A stretch of DNA of 39,508 bases from Escherichia phage RDN8.1. The notes under the pieces were generated by a model. The model ran no database searches. It was not told the origin of the DNA and saw nothing but the letters and a program-made list of their open reading frames with translations. The position numbers and the translations under genes are program-made. The DNA is taken from the sequence record MN414250.1, one strand, 5' to 3'. This document shows, in pieces, positions 1 to 6,199 of this stretch; the stretch's first letter is position 1, and every line of letters starts with the position of its first letter.

Positions 1-639
1 CTGTACCAACTCAACGGCTACATCTTCGCTATGGAAGTTGGCGGTATGCGTGGTGGTTATGAAGACTCTACGCTGGAAGCCTTGGCTAAGATTGGTCGTA
101 AGTGGAAGGTCAACGAGTACGTCATTGAGGGTAACTTCGGTGATGGTATGTACCTTGAGCTATTCAAGCCTGTAGCGGCCCGTATCCATCCTGCGGCTGT
201 AACTGAAGTGAAGAGTAAGGGTCAGAAAGAACTCCGCATCTGTGACGTTCTGGAGCCTATCATGGGGTCTCACAGACTTATCGTTAACGCTGCTGCCATA
301 GTACAAGACTACCAGTCGGCCTCTGATAAGGATGGTGTTCGTAACCCTATCTACTCTCTCTTCTACCAGATGACACGTATCTCTCGTGAACGTGGAGCCT
401 TGGCACACGATGACAGACTTGATGCGCTGGCTATCGGTGTACAGTTCTTCGTTGAGTCTATGGCTAAGGATGCCAACAAAGGCGAACGTGAAGTCACCGA
501 GGAGTGGCTGGAGGAACAGATGGAGAACCCACGGAAAGGCTTCGAGTCCATCCACACTGAGTTCTGGGACAATGGGGTCCGGGTGACTCACGATACGGAC
601 GACGAGCTTGGACTAGGGTCGTACGTTGCGTTCCACTAG
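1..639 (+). CDS. Large terminase subunit (T7 gp19-like), C-terminal part; 5' end lies at 38024..39508 because the window is circularly permuted
   Basis: Reading frame continuous from window start; translation ([15 protein letters not shown]...LFYQMTRISRERGALAHDDRLDALA) matches recalled T7 gp19 C-terminus; 1..357 identical to 39152..39508. Confidence 0.93.
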   Translation: MYQLNGYIFAMEVGGMRGGYEDSTLEALAKIGRKWKVNEYVIEGNFGDGMYLELFKPVAARIHPAAVTEVKSKGQKELRICDVLEPIMGSHRLIVNAAAIVQDYQSASDKDGVRNPIYSLFYQMTRISRERGALAHDDRLDALAIGVQFFVESMAKDANKGEREVTEEWLEEQMENPRKGFESIHTEFWDNGVRVTHDTDDELGLGSYVAFH

Positions 640-733
640 CTGAATGAATAACTATGGGTGAAAGCTGCATTAATACGCAGTTAGTAACCTATAGTTACTA
701 CCAGTATAACCTACTGTTTTACAAGGAGTTTGG

Positions 734-756
734 ACTTAACTATCACTATAGGGAAG
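734..756 (+). promoter_or_regulatory. Phage RNAP promoter (variant TTAACTATCACTATAGGGAAGA), predicted +1 at 751; phi-OR-like position after terminase
   Basis: Matches the 11-copy promoter motif; T7-type CACTATA-G core. Confidence 0.6.
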
Positions 757-936
757 ACCCCCGGTTACTTATAGTATTACTGTAGTGAATATACATATGC
801 AGACTTTATGCAAGACCTTAGGAGGCAGACTCCGAGTTCTTACCTAAGGCTTGCACCGATGGAAGGAGGGTGATATTAATCATAATCCCTCCAATACAGA
901 TAGTCACCGACCATAGATACAGGAGGTATGTAGCAT

Positions 937-1095
937 ATGGCAAAGACCAAAGCTGTACTTAAAGCTCTGGCGACCAATCGAGCTACATACAGGTTTCTTG
1001 CTGCTGTTCTACTTACTGCTGGCGTTACTGCTGGAAGTCAGTGGGTCGGGTGGGTCGAGACTCTCGTATGTACTCTGGTGTCTGAGTGTCATTAA
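937..1095 (+). CDS. Small hydrophobic protein, 52 aa (T7 gene 19.5 position)
   Basis: ATG 8 nt after AGGAGG; MAKTKAVLKALATNRATYRFLAAVLLTAGVTAGSQWVGWVETLVCTLVSECH; not in ORF track (<60 aa). Confidence 0.3.
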   Translation: MAKTKAVLKALATNRATYRFLAAVLLTAGVTAGSQWVGWVETLVCTLVSECH

Positions 1096-1332
1096 CGCTG
1101 TAATGGTAACAATCAACGAAAGACGGACCTAAGGTCAGTTCATAGCTGACGCTACTCTACTGACCTTAGCTACTGTAGTCAAGGACTTTAGGTAACACCT
1201 TAAGAGAAGCTCACTTAGGGTCATCCTACTTACTGGTCTATCCTAGTGTCGCCTGACCTACGGTCCTTGACCTACAGCAGCTTGGTCCTACAGTAGGGAC
1301 GATGAGTTTTGGACCAAAAGTTTGAGACCACA

Positions 1333-1523
1333 TCTCACAGTTCAAGAACCTCAAGTCTCCCCATAGGCCCTCTTTAAGTCCAGACCAAAGGCCCTACCCC
1401 TAGACCTTCGGTCTAAACTTCAAGTCATTGACCAAAGGTTGACCAGAAGTCTGGACCATCGGTGTCCTATATCTAGTGGTCATGACCCAAGGTTGGGACT
1501 ATATGTTGTGTCCTTGAGTCTCT
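1333..1523. repeat. Putative genome terminus / terminal-repeat region, collapsed to one copy in this assembly; boundaries approximate
   Basis: TCTCACAG at 1333 matches the first bases of the T7 left end; CCCCATAGG and GTGTCC..TCTCTATCTGT blocks resemble recalled T7 terminal-repeat sequence. Confidence 0.4.
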
Positions 1524-1547
1524 ATCTGTATCAGCCTCAAGTCATCA

Positions 1548-1642
1548 CCTACAGTCATCACCTACAGTCTGACAACCTACAGTCTCACAGCCTACAGTCA
1601 TCCACTGGTAATGGGACAACCTACAGTCATAGACCTACGGTC
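1548..1642. repeat. Array of short direct repeats (CCTACAGTC x5 plus GACCTACGGTC), analogous to T7 end-adjacent CCTAAAG repeats
   Basis: CCTACAGTC at 1548, 1561, 1576, 1591, 1620; related GACCTAAGGTC / CCTAAAGTC copies at about 1128, 1678, 1801. Confidence 0.7.
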
Positions 1643-1885
1643 TGGTAGACACTCAGTGGACCTTTAGTTTATCAGAGACCTAAGGTCTGGGTCTCAAGGG
1701 TTATCGTTATAGTCTCTATTTAGCAGTCAGGGAGACTATCAGTCTGACTAGGGTTATTGTTGGTGTCTGCCAACTGGACTCTTATTATCCATAGTCCTGA
1801 CCTAAAGTCAACCATCTGTAGTCGTTATCTGGTCATCCTTATATAGTCACTGGACTACTGTATAAATTACCATGATAAATAGTTG

Positions 1886-1914
1886 TTGACATAGGGTCTA
1901 ACTTTTGGTTTAAT
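1886..1914 (+). promoter_or_regulatory. Host sigma70-type early promoter (T7 A1-like): -35 TTGACA 1886..1891, 17-bp spacer, -10 TTTAAT 1909..1914
   Basis: Consensus -35, 17-bp spacer, near-consensus -10, AT-rich upstream; spacer GTCTAAC as in T7 A1. Confidence 0.6.
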
Positions 1915-2035
1915 AGCTTCCGTCAACACGACACGGCAAACACCGGATAGTGAAGACGCCGGGTCACACGGTTAAGTAGACAGCCTGATAAGTCATACGA
2001 ACAACAGGCAGTGACAAGAAGTAAGAAATAAACGC

Positions 2036-2065
2036 TTGACAAGCAGTAACGACTCAACGTAGTAT
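2036..2065 (+). promoter_or_regulatory. Host sigma70-type early promoter (T7 A3-like): -35 TTGACA 2036..2041, -10 TAGTAT 2060..2065
   Basis: TTGACA + 18 bp + TAGTAT; downstream GTACCACATCGAAACGG resembles recalled T7 A3 region. Confidence 0.5.
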
Positions 2066-2264
2066 GTACCACATCGAAACGGTGAGGCCCAACACTGAAA
2101 CGGGATAGCGAGGCGACGACAGCTAAGCGAATGTTCTTTAACAATCTGGATAAACTCTTAATGTGCGCCGATAGCGACTAACTACAGGGTCTTTGAGTCT
2201 ACATCTGAAGGCCCTGACTGATAGTCACTAACATACACACAAACAACTTCGAGAGGATATAACT

Positions 2265-2768
2265 ATGGAACGTAACGCTAACGCATACTATGACCTGCTG
2301 GCTGCAACTGTTGGGCTGTTCAATGAGCGTATTCAGTACGACGAAATAGCTGAAGGTGATGACTACAGTGACGCGCTGCATGAAGTCGTAGACGGTCAGG
2401 TTCCGCACTATTACCACGAGATTTTCACGGTGATGGCTGCTGATGGTATAAGCCATGAGTTTAATGACTCTGGGCTGATGCCTGAGACCAAGGACGTGAC
2501 GCGTATACTGCAAGCTCGCATCTATGAGGCGCTTTATAACGATGTGTCTAATAGCTCCGATGTGGTCTGGTTCGAGGCTGAAGAGAGCGACGAGGAGGAG
2601 GACGAATACTGGGTGGTTGACGCTAAGACAGGTGTATTCATTGAGCAAGCTGTATCACTTGACGTCGCTACTGCATGTGCCAAAGACCATTATGCGATAG
2701 GTCGCCACCTGAAGGTCGAAGACATCAACGATAACGTAGTGTTCGACCCTGAGGAGGACTGCGAGTGA
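2265..2768 (+). CDS. ocr: Ocr-like anti-restriction protein (T7 gp0.3 homologue) with about 45-aa C-terminal extension
   Basis: GAGAGGA RBS; VPHYYHEIFTVMAADGI..FNDSGLMPETKDVTRILQARIYE matches recalled T7 Ocr; 167 aa vs 117 aa. Confidence 0.85.
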   Translation: MERNANAYYDLLAATVGLFNERIQYDEIAEGDDYSDALHEVVDGQVPHYYHEIFTVMAADGISHEFNDSGLMPETKDVTRILQARIYEALYNDVSNSSDVVWFEAEESDEEEDEYWVVDAKTGVFIEQAVSLDVATACAKDHYAIGRHLKVEDINDNVVFDPEEDCE

Positions 2769-2962
2769 TAGTAACTTATGGTCTCTGCCAACACCACGTC
2801 ACCAACGCCCGGCTTATGGTCAAGACCGGGCAGTTAAACCATGATGCGACTATGCGTCACCTGAAAGCGGTCTACGAGGGCCGCAAGCGCATACACGACA
2901 GCTTACACTCTGAGGACAAGCAAACATGTACCAGATAACTTATAGCAGTGAACAGGCGTTCT

Positions 2963-3160
2963 ATGATGGGTGCACTATTGATAGTCATAGGTTATGGACT
3001 TATCGCCTACGTGCTGGTGAGAGACATCAACAAAGCGCGTAAAGTCTACAAATTCAACTATGTACGTCTGGGCCGCTGGACTGTACGTCAACCTAACGGA
3101 CGATTTATGCGCAACTTAGCGAACGTCTGGGATATAGCAACACTTGGGAGCAAACTGTAA
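2963..3160 (+). CDS. Small early membrane protein (one predicted TM helix); start uncertain (GTG 2948 or ATG 2963/2966)
   Basis: ORF track 2948..3160; hydrophobic GALLIVIGYGLIAYVLV then basic tail; early-region position. Confidence 0.35.
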   Translation: MMGALLIVIGYGLIAYVLVRDINKARKVYKFNYVRLGRWTVRQPNGRFMRNLANVWDIATLGSKL

Positions 3161-3420
3161 TGAAAACCGAATACACTAACAAACCATCTAGCCGTAGCCG
3201 TGTGGAGCAAGCGCACCGTGACATGTTCTTACAGCGCCGCATGAGGGCTGAGGGCCATAAGTCCGAACTAATGTGTCTGGCGTATGGTGGACGACCAATC
3301 ACTGACGATGGCAAACTTCTGGTCTCAGGCTGGAAGGCGATAGACCAACGGTCAACCATCAAGCACACGACTCATGGTGACTTCAGTCATCTTCAAGCTA
3401 ACCCACTGATATGCAAGTGA
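3160..3420 (+). CDS. Hypothetical early protein, 86 aa
   Basis: ATG overlaps upstream stop (TAATGA); fills the gap before gene 1; no recognised motif. Confidence 0.4.
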   Translation: MKTEYTNKPSSRSRVEQAHRDMFLQRRMRAEGHKSELMCLAYGGRPITDDGKLLVSGWKAIDQRSTIKHTTHGDFSHLQANPLICK

Positions 3421-3425
3421 TTCTG

Positions 3426-3448
3426 ACTTAACTATCACTATAGGACTC
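3426..3448 (+). promoter_or_regulatory. Phage RNAP promoter-like sequence upstream of the RNAP gene, predicted +1 at 3443
   Basis: TTAACTATCACTATAGGACTCAAGG; same variant as at 734 and 26754. Confidence 0.5.
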
Positions 3449-3517
3449 AAGGTCTAAGACTCCAAGTGAAAGACCGAAGAGACTTTAAGTGAAAGACTAA
3501 TAACAAGGACTTTAAGT

Positions 3518-6199
3518 ATGAGCGTCATCTCTATTAACAAACACGACTTCTCTGATGTGTCGAACGCCATTGAGCCGTTTAACCTGCTGGCCGACCACTA
3601 CGGGCAAGACCTTGCAGTCAAACAGCTTCAGCTTGAGCATGAGGCATACACTGAAGGCGAGCGACGTTTCATCAAGAACCTTGAGCGACAGACTGAGCGC
3701 GGGGAACTGGCAGACAATCAGGTAGCCAGGCCTCTTATGCAGACTCTGGTCCCTAAGATTGCGCAAGCCGTCAAGGAGTGGCACGAAGGTACAGACGGGA
3801 AGCTATCAACCTCTCGTCCGAGCGTAGCGTTCACCATGTTGAGCACTGAAGAGAAGGCCGTCAAGGACCGCTCTCTGCGCATCTCCTGTGAGTCTGCTGC
3901 GGTTATCATACTGAAGGTCGTCCTCTCCAAGCTGGTCAAGCCTGAAGGGATACCGATTACACCGATGGCCTCCGCGATAGGTCGCACACTTGAGGATGAA
4001 ATCCGCTTCGGTCGCATCCGTGACAAGGAGCAGGAGCACTTCAAGAAGGCGATAGCTGAGAACCTGAACAAGCGAGCCGGGGCATCCTACAAGAAAGCCT
4101 ACATGCAAGCGGTTGAGACCTCCATGCTGGAGCAAGGCCAACTGGAAGATGCGTGGGGAACTTGGAGTCCGACCGAGGCTGTCCACGTTGGAATCAAGAT
4201 GCTTGAGATTGTCATCCAGTCAACACAACTGGTAGAGCTTAAGCGTTATGGTGCTGGCAATGCTGCGGCTGACGTTGAGATGGTCCACCTGTCAGACTTC
4301 TGGGTCAAGAAGATGGCTCAGCGTGGCTTCTCTCTTGCGGGAATCGCTCCAGTCTACCAGCCATGCGTCGTTCCACCTAAGCCGTGGACTGGTGTCGTAG
4401 GCGGTGGGTATTGGGCCAAAGGTCGCAGACCATTGCCTCTGATTCGCTTGGGGTCTAAGTCTGCGGTAGCACGTTACGAAGACGTGTACATGCCTGAAGT
4501 CTATGACGCTGTGAACATCATCCAGAATACACCTTGGAAAGTTAACAAGAAGGTTCTGGACGTGGTGAACATGGTCGAGAAGCTGAACAACACGCCTATT
4601 GATGACATCCCTCAGATGGAACCGCTGAAGCCTGAGGACTATGCGGGTGAGACTGAAGAAGAACTCAAGGCATGGAAGAAAGCTGCTGCTGGTATCTATC
4701 GTCGCGAGAAGGCCCGACAGTCACGCAGATTGTCACTGAGCTTTATCGTTAACCAAGCGAACAAGTTTTCTCAGTTTAAGGCCATCTGGTTCCCGTATAA
4801 CATGGACTGGCGCGGGCGCGTCTACGCTGTACCGATGTTCAACCCTCAGGGTAACGACATGCAGAAGGGCCTCCTTACTCTGGCGGTAGGCAAGCCTATT
4901 GGTGCTGACGGTTTCAAATGGCTGAAGGTACACGGCGCAAACTGTGCCGGTGTCGATAAAGTCACCTTCGAGGAGCGCATCAAGTGGGTGGAAGACAACC
5001 ACGACAACATCATGGCTGCTGCTAAAGCACCGATGGACAGTATTGAGTGGTGGGGAAGGTTAGACTCTCCGTTCTGCTTCCTTGCGTTCTGCTTCGAGTA
5101 TGCTGGCGTAATGCACCACGGACTGTCCTACAACTGCTCGCTACCGATAGCGTTCGATGGGTCCTGCTCTGGTATTCAGCACTTCAGCGCGATGCTTCGT
5201 GACCACATCGGTGGACATGCAGTAAACCTGACGCCTTCCGGTAAGGTACAAGACATATACCGCATTGTATCTGACCGCATTGAGGAGGAGCTTAAAGTCC
5301 TGCTGGTTAACGGTACGGACAACGAGATGATAACCCACGAGGACAAGAAAACTGGCGAGATTACCGAGCGTCTCAAGCTGGGGACACGAGAGCTGTCCCG
5401 TCAGTGGCTGACCTACGGTATGTCACGCAAGGTCACTAAGCGTTCGGTCATGACTCTAGCCTACGGGTCGAAAGAGTACGGCTTCGCAGACCAAGTTTAC
5501 GAGGACATCGTGATGCCAGCGATTGACTCAGGGTCTGGAGCTATGTTCACTGAGCCAAGCCAAGCGTCTCGCTTCATGGCTAAGATGATTTGGGAAGCTG
5601 TGAGTGTGACCGTAGTTGCTGCGGTTGACGCGATGAAGTGGCTTCAAGGTGCTGCCAAGCTGCTGGCTGCTGAAGTGAAGGACAAGAAGACTGGCGAAAT
5701 CCTGAAGCCTTGCCTTCCGGTACACTGGGTCACACCTGATGGTTTCCCGGTCTGGCAGGAATATCGCAAGAAGGATACAACTCGTCTGAACCTGATGTTC
5801 TTAGGGTCATTCAACCTTCAGCCTACAGTCAACAAAGGCACGAAGAAAGAGCTGGACAAGCACAAGCAGGAGTCAGGCATTAGCCCGAACTTCGTCCACT
5901 CACAAGATGGTAGCCACCTACGCAAGACTGTAGTCCACACTCACCGCAAGTACGGCGTGATGTCGTTCGCAGTGATTCACGATAGTTTCGGGACCATACC
6001 TGCTGACGCTGAGTATCTGTTCCGTGGCGTCCGTGAGACGATGGTCGAGACCTACCGCGATAACGATGTGCTGCTTGACTTCTACGAGCAGTTCGAATAC
6101 CAGCTTCACGAGAGCCAGCGCGACAAGTTGCCTGAGCTTCCGAAGAAAGGTAAACTGAATATCGAAGACATCTTGTCTTCAGACTTTGCATTCGCTTAA
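3518..6199 (+). CDS. Single-subunit DNA-directed RNA polymerase (T7 gp1 homologue)
   Basis: 893 aa; long blocks match recalled T7 RNAP (NKFSQFKAIWFPYNMDWRGRVYAV, PFCFLAFCFEYAG, FAVIHDSFGT, C-terminal SDFAFA). Confidence 0.98.
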   Translation: MSVISINKHDFSDVSNAIEPFNLLADHYGQDLAVKQLQLEHEAYTEGERRFIKNLERQTERGELADNQVARPLMQTLVPKIAQAVKEWHEGTDGKLSTSRPSVAFTMLSTEEKAVKDRSLRISCESAAVIILKVVLSKLVKPEGIPITPMASAIGRTLEDEIRFGRIRDKEQEHFKKAIAENLNKRAGASYKKAYMQAVETSMLEQGQLEDAWGTWSPTEAVHVGIKMLEIVIQSTQLVELKRYGAGNAAADVEMVHLSDFWVKKMAQRGFSLAGIAPVYQPCVVPPKPWTGVVGGGYWAKGRRPLPLIRLGSKSAVARYEDVYMPEVYDAVNIIQNTPWKVNKKVLDVVNMVEKLNNTPIDDIPQMEPLKPEDYAGETEEELKAWKKAAAGIYRREKARQSRRLSLSFIVNQANKFSQFKAIWFPYNMDWRGRVYAVPMFNPQGNDMQKGLLTLAVGKPIGADGFKWLKVHGANCAGVDKVTFEERIKWVEDNHDNIMAAAKAPMDSIEWWGRLDSPFCFLAFCFEYAGVMHHGLSYNCSLPIAFDGSCSGIQHFSAMLRDHIGGHAVNLTPSGKVQDIYRIVSDRIEEELKVLLVNGTDNEMITHEDKKTGEITERLKLGTRELSRQWLTYGMSRKVTKRSVMTLAYGSKEYGFADQVYEDIVMPAIDSGSGAMFTEPSQASRFMAKMIWEAVSVTVVAAVDAMKWLQGAAKLLAAEVKDKKTGEILKPCLPVHWVTPDGFPVWQEYRKKDTTRLNLMFLGSFNLQPTVNKGTKKELDKHKQESGISPNFVHSQDGSHLRKTVVHTHRKYGVMSFAVIHDSFGTIPADAEYLFRGVRETMVETYRDNDVLLDFYEQFEYQLHESQRDKLPELPKKGKLNIEDILSSDFAFA

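What the first reader, a model, noticed from the sequence alone, without database searches (positions are those of the whole stretch)
2001..2030. A2-like early promoter appears degenerate
The region aligning to T7 promoter A2 retains a GTGACA (2011..2016) but has lost the spacer and -10 element, leaving two clear sigma70-type promoters (1886, 2036) instead of three.
Basis: partly seen in the sequence, partly recalled or inferred. Interest (0 to 1): 0.2.

Follow-up and report, generated by a model that had tools for sequence, protein, structure and literature searches.

The report
Relic of a lost early promoter
In this K1F-like relative of phage T7, the place where T7 has its second host-polymerase promoter (A2) holds only a mutated -35 box with no usable -10 box; this is an ordinary relic shared by the whole genus, and two early promoters remain.

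Summary
GTGACA sits at 2011-2016, exactly where T7 and T3 have the -35 box (TTGACA) of early promoter A2. It directly follows a nearly invariant 38-nt block (1973-2010). Compared with T7, the window lacks about 96 nt (T7 606-701): the distal A2 spacer, the -10 box, the start site and most of the A2 leader. No -10-like hexamer lies 14-20 nt downstream of GTGACA; the best score is 0.5, against 12-14 for T7 A1-A3. The two best sigma70-type sites in the window's early region are 1886 (A1-like) and 2036 (A3-like). The relic is not special to this phage. All 19 K1F-like (Kayfunavirus) early regions surveyed have GTGAC[A/G] or ATGACA here, and all 31 non-Kayfunavirus regions have TTGACA plus a good -10. 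Promoter number varies from 2 to 4 across the subfamily, and T7 lacking A2 and A3 is viable. Two caveats apply. The A1-like -10 (TTTAAT) lacks the canonical A at -11. Loss versus never-gained is inferred, not proven. This is ordinary and of low interest. The side observation of more interest is a conserved, covarying RNA structure in the A1 leader that ends at this hexamer.

The parts
1886..1914 (+). A1-like sigma70 promoter: -35 TTGACA 1886-1891, 17-nt spacer, TG at 1906-1907, -10 TTTAAT 1909-1914. The predicted +1 is G1922, by homology with T7 A1.
   Evidence: Top PWM score in the whole window (16.9). It aligns with T7 and T3 A1. It is not called by the stricter scan, which requires A at position 2 of the -10. 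The -10 varies as nnTAAT across the genus.
1922..1957 (+). 5'-terminal three-part hairpin of the predicted A1 transcript.
   Evidence: Seen in the MFE and centroid folds. The same architecture, with different stem sequences, is found in T7, T3, L010, L041 and L012.
1958..1972 (+). Small G+C hairpin with a GTCA-containing loop.
   Evidence: All 23 distinct variants fold. The arms covary: CCGG/CCGG, CCAG/CTGG, CCAC/GTGG, CCCG/CGGG, CGGG/CCCG, CCTGG/CCAGG.
1973..2010 (+). Nearly invariant non-coding block TAAGTAGACAGCCTGATAAGTCATACGAACAACAGGCA. It is the upstream flank of the A2 position.
   Evidence: The 22-mer is exact in 42 IMG/VR contigs, including T7-, T3- and K1F-like phages. It is conserved across groups whose RNA polymerases are only 58-63% identical to the window's. 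A possible internal stem GCCTG/CAGGC has one compensatory variant.
2011..2016 (+). GTGACA, the relic of the A2 -35 hexamer (T to G at its first base).
   Evidence: It aligns to TTGACA of T7 and T3 A2. No -10 lies at 14-20 nt. The same column is GTGAC[A/G] or ATGACA in 19 of 19 K1F-like regions.
2017..2035 (+). AGAAGTAAGAAATAAACGC: leftover proximal A2 spacer (about 2017-2025) fused to the A3 upstream flank (about 2026-2035). It is A-rich and lies at about -54 to -36 of the A3-like promoter. In the alternative register, TAAGAA 2022-2027 is the -10 relic.
   Evidence: Pairwise alignments with T7 and T3. The relatives SAKp10309 and L058 carry AAGGTGAAACAAAACGC here, matching T7's A3 upstream flank AAGGTGAAACAAAACGG.
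2036..2065 (+). A3-like sigma70 promoter: -35 TTGACA 2036-2041, 18-nt spacer, -10 TAGTAT 2060-2065. The predicted +1 is A2073, by homology with T7 A3.
   Evidence: Best + strand hit of the consensus scan (10/12). PWM score 13.6. The downstream sequence GTACCACATCGAAACGGTGAGG aligns with the T7 A3 leader.
2132..2144 (+). boxA-like sequence TGTTCTTTAACAA. Relatives, T7 and T3 have GCTCTTTAACAA.
   Evidence: Conserved column block. The resemblance to rrn boxA rests on my own knowledge.
2162..2241 (+). Long stem-loop before gene 0.3, at the position of the T3 and T7 RNase III site R0.3.
   Evidence: Fold energy -26 kcal/mol, z = -3.1, 0 of 200 shuffles as stable. T3 annotates R0.3 at the equivalent place.
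2265..2768 (+). First early gene, ocr-like gene 0.3 (167 aa).
   Evidence: ORF list. The homologous ORF is annotated Ocr/Gp0.3 in SAKp10309 and K1F.

Best explanation
GTGACA at 2011-2016 is the non-functional relic of the second sigma70 early promoter (the A2 position) of the T7 subfamily. In an ancestor of the K1F-like phages, about 100 nt were deleted. The deleted stretch ran from within the A2 spacer, through its -10 box and start site, to just upstream of the A3 -35 box. The likely cause is recombination between the near-repeated promoter modules. The orphaned -35 box then drifted (T to G). Host RNA polymerase therefore starts early transcription, and the transcription-coupled entry of the genome, from two promoters only: A1-like (+1 near 1922) and A3-like (+1 near 2073). 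The relic and its A-rich remainder now simply form the upstream flank (about -60 to -36) of the A3-like promoter, where the A-rich proximal part may give some UP-element-like contact. Shown: positional homology, absence of a -10, genus-wide distribution, and two strong candidate promoters. Inferred: the direction of change, the deletion mechanism, lack of activity in vivo, and any UP-element effect.
For: The alignments put GTGACA in the A2 -35 column after a near-identical 38-nt flank. They also show a clean gap covering T7 606-701, which includes the -10 at 613-618 and the +1 at 626. No -10 is present: the best score with this -35 is 0.5, against 12.2-14.3 for T7 A1-A3 and 16.9/13.6 for sites 1886/2036. 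In the survey, 31 of 52 distinct block-containing regions have TTGACA plus a good -10 (12.6-16.8), and all are non-Kayfunavirus. Another 19 of 52 have GTGAC[A/G] or ATGACA with a best score of 6.0 or less, and all are K1F-like. The widespread state is therefore an intact promoter, and the derived state is confined to one genus. The relatives SAKp10309, L058 and ST15 keep AAGGTGAAAC(A)AAACGC between the relic and TTGACA. This matches T7's A3 upstream flank, so both the A2 and A3 flanks are present with the A2 core missing. Junctions differ among lineages: 6, 8 or 19 nt, or about 160 nt in BHUENT8. Promoter copy number also varies from 2 to 4, as expected from recurrent recombination among tandem promoters. 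The loss is tolerable: T7 lacking A2 and A3 forms plaques (PMC13128918). T7 with all early promoters replaced by one synthetic promoter is viable (bioRxiv 10.1101/2021.08.23.457391). No single A promoter is dominant in T7 (PMC11863960).
Against: No transcription data exist for this phage or, as far as I could find, for any Kayfunavirus, so inactivity is predicted and not measured. The PWM was built from my recollection of published hexamer frequencies and is good only for ranking. The homology of 2017-2035 is ambiguous because the A2 spacer, the A2 -10 region and the A3 upstream flank resemble one another. The polarity was not tested on a phylogeny. TGACA is kept in nearly all K1F-like variants, which could mean selection for something other than a promoter.
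Confidence: 0.8

Rival explanations
1. Never a promoter in this lineage. On this view the two-promoter layout with block + GTGACA + A3 is ancestral, and T7- and T3-like phages gained A2 by tandem duplication of the A3 core inserted at this spot.
For: A2 and A3 of T7 and T3 are obvious paralogues (both TTGACAACATGAAGTAA...). Copy number changes readily, with 4 promoters in some T7-like contigs. Some non-Kayfunavirus regions are short between block and boxA (L024, 53 nt).
Against: Every non-Kayfunavirus region, including those most distant by RNA polymerase (58-59% identity, L041/L095) and short ones such as L024, has TTGACA plus a good -10 directly after the block. The block-TTGACA junction therefore looks ancestral. 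A 5/6 -35 match in exactly that column in 19 of 19 K1F-like regions would have to be coincidence.
Confidence: 0.12
2. The xTGACA hexamer is kept not as a dead promoter box but as the 3' edge of a conserved functional element, namely the structured A1 leader RNA or a DNA site formed by the 38-nt block. This is compatible with loss of A2 activity.
For: The block is almost invariant across groups with 58-63% RNA polymerase identity to the window. The upstream hairpins covary, indicating RNA-level selection. TGACA persists in nearly all K1F-like variants despite variable downstream junctions. The distance from block to next promoter varies (12, 15, 25 and about 190 nt), so the block is not a fixed-spacing activator site.
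Against: The hexamer does vary (GTGACA, GTGACG, ATGACA with an inserted A, CCGACA in ST35, CTAATC in L012), unlike the block itself. No predicted pairing involves it in the consensus fold. Rfam has no family for it.
Confidence: 0.2
3. GTGACA still nucleates a weak or unconventional promoter, for example activator-dependent, or using the downstream TTGACA region or TAAGAA as a surrogate -10.
For: A 5/6 -35 match with an A-rich downstream stretch. TAAGAA (2022-2027) resembles the A2 -10 TAAGAT.
Against: TAAGAA is only 5 nt from the hexamer and has A rather than T at its last position. All spacings from 14 to 20 nt give scores of 0.5 or less. There is no TG-extended -10. A polymerase bound here would overlap the strong A3-like promoter 25 nt downstream.
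Confidence: 0.03
4. The region is coding: the minus-strand ORF 1923-2144 (73 aa, TTG start) constrains the sequence.
For: The ORF is listed, and a stop-free minus-strand frame is also present in relatives. Some records annotate 'hypothetical protein' here.
Against: An open frame of this length occurs in 891 of 5000 composition-preserving shuffles, because the + strand is T-poor. Relatives differ by indels that are not multiples of three. All genes of T7-like phages lie on the other strand, and the stretch aligns to the non-coding promoter region annotated in T7 and T3.
Confidence: 0.01

Closest known systems
Phage T7 early promoter A2 (start at T7 nt 626) and its T3 counterpart
   Same: Same position: directly after the conserved block ...GACAGCCTGATAAGTC(N)ACGAA(A/C)AACAGG(C/T)A. 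The -35 hexamer is in the same alignment column, and the first 8-10 spacer bases (GAAGTAA) are recognisable.
   Different: T to G at the first base of the -35. The distal spacer, the -10 TAAGAT, the start site and about 75 nt of leader are absent. The predicted score is 0.5 against 13.8.
Phage T7/T3 early promoter A3
   Same: The window's 2036 promoter shares A3's upstream flank (GAAA-TAAACGC against GAAACAAAACGG), TTGACA, and the leader GTACCACAT(C)GAAACG..GTGAG..CACTGAAA.
   Different: 18-nt rather than 17-nt spacer, and -10 TAGTAT rather than TACGAT. It lies 25 nt, not 125 nt, after the A2-position hexamer.
Early region of phage K1F and other Kayfunavirus genomes
   Same: Same genus: about 90% DNA identity over the left 12 kb and 93-99% RNA polymerase identity to many members. 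The layout is the same: A1-like promoter, block, degenerate hexamer, then a TTGACA promoter.
   Different: The K1F type has G-ATGACA followed by only 8 nt (GAAAGTAG) before TTGACA. The window type (shared with SAKp10309, ST15 and L058) has GTGACA plus 19 nt. Some members carry a third promoter about 150 nt further on (EcpYZU01, ST35, L011). No record is more than 92% identical over 1973-2075.

Membership tests
Functional sigma70 (housekeeping) promoter | -35 hexamer close to TTGACA | tested here: met
   GTGACA, 5 of 6. By itself this is expected by chance hundreds of times in the window.
Functional sigma70 (housekeeping) promoter | -10 hexamer close to TATAAT (A at position 2, T at position 6) 16-19 nt downstream of the -35 | tested here: not met
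   The hexamers at spacings of 14-20 nt are AACGCT, ACGCTT, CGCTTG, GCTTGA, CTTGAC, TTGACA and TGACAA. Total scores run from -5.0 to 0.5. The consensus scan does not list it.
Functional sigma70 (housekeeping) promoter | Alternatively, a TG-extended -10 that can replace a -35 | tested here: not met
   There is no TGnTAnnnT-like motif in 2001-2035.
Functional sigma70 (housekeeping) promoter | Mapped transcription start or open complex | not testable with these tools
   No transcript data were available. Literature searches found none for Kayfunavirus.
Positional homologue (orthologue) of the T7/T3 A2 promoter | Conserved upstream flank immediately 5' of the hexamer | tested here: met
   The 38-nt block at 1973-2010 matches T7 and T3 at nearly every base.
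Positional homologue (orthologue) of the T7/T3 A2 promoter | Order A1 - A2 - A3 - boxA - R0.3 - gene 0.3 on the same strand | tested here: met
   The A1-like (1886), relic (2011), A3-like (2036), boxA-like (2132), stem-loop (2162-2241) and ocr (2265) features are collinear with T7 and T3.
Genus Kayfunavirus (K1F-like Studiervirinae) | High nucleotide and RNA polymerase similarity to classified members, and a T7-like gene order | tested here: met
   The best hits are classified Kayfunavirus at about 90% DNA identity over 12 kb. RNA polymerase identity is 93-99% to many K1F-like contigs against 58-63% to other Studiervirinae. Classified relatives appear.

The most novel reading that the evidence does not exclude
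The hexamer marks the 3' edge of an undescribed, subfamily-wide functional RNA in the leader transcribed from A1. This RNA would comprise a 5'-terminal three-part hairpin, a second covarying hairpin and a 38-nt invariant segment (window 1922-2010). It is conserved from T7 to K1F-like phages independently of whether an A2 promoter follows. It might stabilise the early transcript, modify host RNA polymerase (antitermination together with the downstream boxA), or bind a host factor during transcription-driven genome entry.
Probability: 0.3. Interest if true: 0.5.

Novelty: new member of a known kind. Interest (0 to 1): 0.1.

Why it matters
It matters little on its own. It shows that the tandem host-polymerase promoters that pull a T7-type genome into the cell are redundant and turn over by recombination, and that K1F-like phages routinely manage with two. 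Practically, it tells annotators and phage engineers which early promoters to expect in Kayfunavirus genomes (none of the records examined annotates them). It also warns that the A1-like -10 box in this genus is non-canonical. The conserved structured A1 leader next to the relic is the part that could repay experimental work.

Tried and rejected
An Rfam search of 1100-3600 found only a chance microRNA hit (E 0.48), so there is no known RNA family. A search of 1950-2016 against 5,426 complete E. coli genomes found no match even at E 10, so the block is not a copy or mimic of host sequence. The minus-strand ORF 1923-2144 is explained by base composition (18% of shuffles). RNAalifold on a plain MAFFT alignment missed hairpin II because of gap placement and gave only weak covariation; folding each variant on its own was more informative. 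Literature searches for K1F or Kayfunavirus host promoters returned nothing relevant. The K1F genome paper is not held. Searching papers for the block sequence found only T7 constructs that happen to contain it. I considered IHF, Fis and CRP sites in the block by eye and saw no convincing match; this was not computed.

Full report
WHAT THE WINDOW IS. The window is a circularly permuted T7-type phage genome of the K1F-like genus Kayfunavirus. The left 12 kb is about 90% identical to many classified Kayfunavirus records. Its 893-aa RNA polymerase (3518-6199) is 93-99% identical to K1F-like contigs, but only 58-63% identical to other Studiervirinae such as T7- and T3-like phages. The order of features is as follows:
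- end of gene 19 (to 639);
- a phage-type promoter at about 736;
- a small ORF, followed by repeats of the genome-end region;
- the host-polymerase promoter cluster (1886-2075);
- a boxA-like sequence (2132-2144);
- a long stem-loop (2162-2241; z = -3.1), at the place of the T3 and T7 RNase III site R0.3;
- the ocr-like gene 0.3 (2265-2768).

GTGACA is at 2011-2016, and TTGACA is at 1886-1891 and 2036-2041. In multiple and pairwise alignments with T7 and T3, GTGACA lies in the column of the A2 -35 hexamer. It comes directly after the block TAAGTAGACAGCCTGATAAGTCATACGAACAACAGGCA (1973-2010), which is almost identical in T7 and T3. After GTGACA the window keeps about 8-10 bases that align with the start of the A2 spacer (A-GAAGTAA against ACATGAAGTAA). 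It then lacks T7 606-701, and resumes in the A3 upstream flank (GAAA-TAAACGC|TTGACA against GAAACAAAACGG|TTGACA). The missing piece holds the distal spacer, the -10 TAAGAT (T7 613-618), the start at 626 and about 75 nt of A2 leader.

An alternative register, seen against T3, aligns GTGACAAGAAGTAAG with GTAACAAGTAGTAAG of the T3 A2 spacer and -10. In that register TAAGAA (2022-2027) would be the -10 relic and the spacing would have collapsed to 5 nt. The ambiguity arises because the A2 spacer, the A2 -10 region and the A3 upstream flank resemble one another. In either register no workable promoter geometry remains.

IS IT MORE THAN CHANCE? A 5/6 match to TTGACA is not. The simple consensus scan finds 8 promoter-like sites in 1-4000, against 4.9 +/- 2.1 in shuffles. 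What carries weight is positional homology, which is very strong (38 near-identical flanking bases).

PROMOTER SCORING. I scored all positions with a -35/spacer/-10 weight matrix. The frequencies came from my recollection of published compilations, so the scores are useful for ranking only. With GTGACA as the -35, spacings of 14-20 nt give -5.0 to 0.5, and 15,380 sites in the window score at least 0. Sites 1886 and 2036 score 16.9 and 13.6, ranking 1st and 3rd in the whole window on both strands. The same matrix gives T7 A1, A2 and A3 scores of 12.2, 13.8 and 14.3, and T3 A1-A3 scores of 14.3, 13.8 and 14.3, recovering exactly the annotated promoters. By homology the starts should be G1922 and A2073.

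CAVEAT ON THE A1-LIKE PROMOTER. Its -10 is TTTAAT, with T at -11 where A is normally required. For that reason the stricter scan does not list it. It does have a perfect -35, a 17-nt spacer and TG at -15/-14. Across the genus this hexamer is nnTAAT (TTTAAT, CTTAAT, CCTAAT, TGTAAT) or GACTAT, so the first two positions vary. The alternative register TAATAG would need a 19-nt spacer and G at -7.

Indirect support that A1 is used comes from the sequence downstream of the predicted +1, which forms a conserved structured leader:
- a three-part 5' hairpin (1922-1957), whose stems differ in sequence but not in architecture between the window, T7, T3, L010, L041 and L012;
- a second hairpin (1958-1972), whose arms covary in six different combinations and which folds in all 23 distinct variants.

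COMPARATIVE SURVEY. The 22-mer from the block is exact in 42 IMG/VR contigs, and 80 more loci were fetched through the RNA polymerase. Among 52 distinct block-containing early regions:
- 31 have TTGACA directly after the block with a good -10 at 17-18 nt (scores 12.6-16.8). These are T7-like, T3-like and other non-Kayfunavirus phages, including L041/L095, whose polymerase is only 58% identical to the window's.
- 19 have GTGAC[A/G] or ATGACA with a best score of 6.0 or less. All are K1F-like: polymerase at least 93% identical to the window where it is present in the fetched loci, or classified as Kayfunavirus.
- 2 were not classified by the script. BHUENT8 shows GTGACA in the alignment, and L012 has CTAATC.

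The degenerate hexamer is therefore a genus-wide trait. The junction to the next TTGACA differs between lineages: 19 nt (window, SAKp10309, L058, ST15), 6 nt (L006), 8 nt after an inserted A (K1F type) and about 160-190 nt (BHUENT8). SAKp10309 and L058 carry AAGGTGAAACAAAACGC there, matching T7's A3 upstream flank at 16 of 17 bases. The K1F-like genomes thus contain the A2 flank and the A3 flank with the A2 core missing between them. The number of strong candidates between A1 and boxA ranges from 2 to 4 across the subfamily. Some Kayfunavirus genomes have three (EcpYZU01, ST35, L011, L035, L046).

MOST LIKELY EXPLANATION. A recombinational deletion between near-repeated promoter modules removed the A2 core in the K1F-like lineage, and the orphaned -35 then drifted. 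I consider this likely (0.8) but inferred. The rival, that T7- and T3-like phages gained A2 by duplication and GTGACA was never a promoter, is disfavoured. Every non-Kayfunavirus region has an intact promoter at the block junction, and a 5/6 match in exactly that column in all K1F-like regions would have to be coincidence. I did not run an ancestral-state reconstruction.

Loss of A2 should be tolerated:
- T7 lacking A2 and A3 plaques (PMC13128918).
- T7 whose whole early control region was replaced by one synthetic promoter is viable (bioRxiv 10.1101/2021.08.23.457391).
- CRISPRi found no dominant promoter in the T7 array (PMC11863960).

The relic plus the A-rich stretch now lie at about -60 to -36 of the A3-like promoter. 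GAAATAAAC at about -46 to -38 loosely resembles a proximal UP-element half-site. That resemblance rests on my own knowledge and comparison by eye and was not tested.

OTHER READINGS CONSIDERED. A minus-strand ORF (1923-2144) is explained by composition. No Rfam family and no E. coli homologue were found. The hexamer might be retained as the edge of the conserved leader element. TGACA does persist, but it varies more than the block does and is not paired in the consensus fold.

COMPARISON WITH WHAT IS KNOWN, AND VERDICT. The site works like nothing: it is a dead promoter box. As a member of the functional sigma70 promoter class it fails the defining -10 test. As a positional homologue of T7 and T3 A2 it passes on flank and synteny. 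None of the public records examined annotates host promoters here, and I found no paper describing them for this genus. Variation in the number of early promoters among T7-like phages is nevertheless unremarkable. Interest is low (0.1), and I class it as a new member of a known kind. The conserved, covarying A1 leader structure next to it is the more intriguing by-product.

Noticed in passing
window 1922-2010 (also T7 498-588 = L003, T3 = L005, and loci L006-L047): The predicted A1 leader is a conserved structured RNA. It has a 5'-terminal three-part hairpin whose stems differ in sequence but keep the same architecture across genera. A second hairpin has arms that covary in six combinations. 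A 38-nt segment is almost invariant across phages whose RNA polymerases are 58-63% identical to the window's. There is no Rfam family and no E. coli homologue; the function is unknown to me.
   Followed up: partly
window 1906-1914: The A1-like -10 is TTTAAT (T at -11) preceded by TG. Across Kayfunavirus the hexamer is nnTAAT with variable first two bases (CT, CC, TT, TG) or GACTAT. This is an odd conservation pattern for a sigma70 -10 box and raises the question of how strong A1 is in this genus.
   Followed up: partly
window 2132-2144: The boxA-like sequence is TGTTCTTTAACAA, while close relatives, T7 and T3 all have GCTCTTTAACAA. The window therefore carries a C-to-T change in an otherwise invariant motif.
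   Followed up: no
window 736-3428: No phage-RNA-polymerase promoter (own consensus TTAACTATCACTATAGG, up to 3 mismatches) lies between 736 and 3428. There is thus no counterpart of T7/T3 phiOL upstream of A1; eleven such promoters were found genome-wide.
   Followed up: partly
window 1784-1811 (- strand) and 1154-1182 (- strand): Two leftward sigma70-like sites are present: TTGACT-16-GATAAT (10/12) and TTGACT-17-TAGAGT. They are reminiscent of the leftward A0 promoter annotated in T7 and T3.
   Followed up: no
window 1540-1640: An array of short direct repeats built on ACCTACAGTC lies in the genome-end region upstream of the early promoters. The weak promoter-like hits at 1267 and 1569 fall in this kind of sequence.
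   Followed up: no
window 2768-3518: Only three small ORFs (57, 70 and 86 aa) lie between ocr and the RNA polymerase gene. No ORF is long enough to be a T7 gene 0.7-type protein kinase.
   Followed up: no
L128 (EcpYZU01), L129 (ST35), L130 (BHUENT8), L001 (Ro103C3lw): The interval between the block and boxA is an indel hotspot within the genus. Extra promoter copies, a promoter-less insert of about 160 nt, or a small inserted ORF (Ro103_1) occur at the same place.
   Followed up: partly
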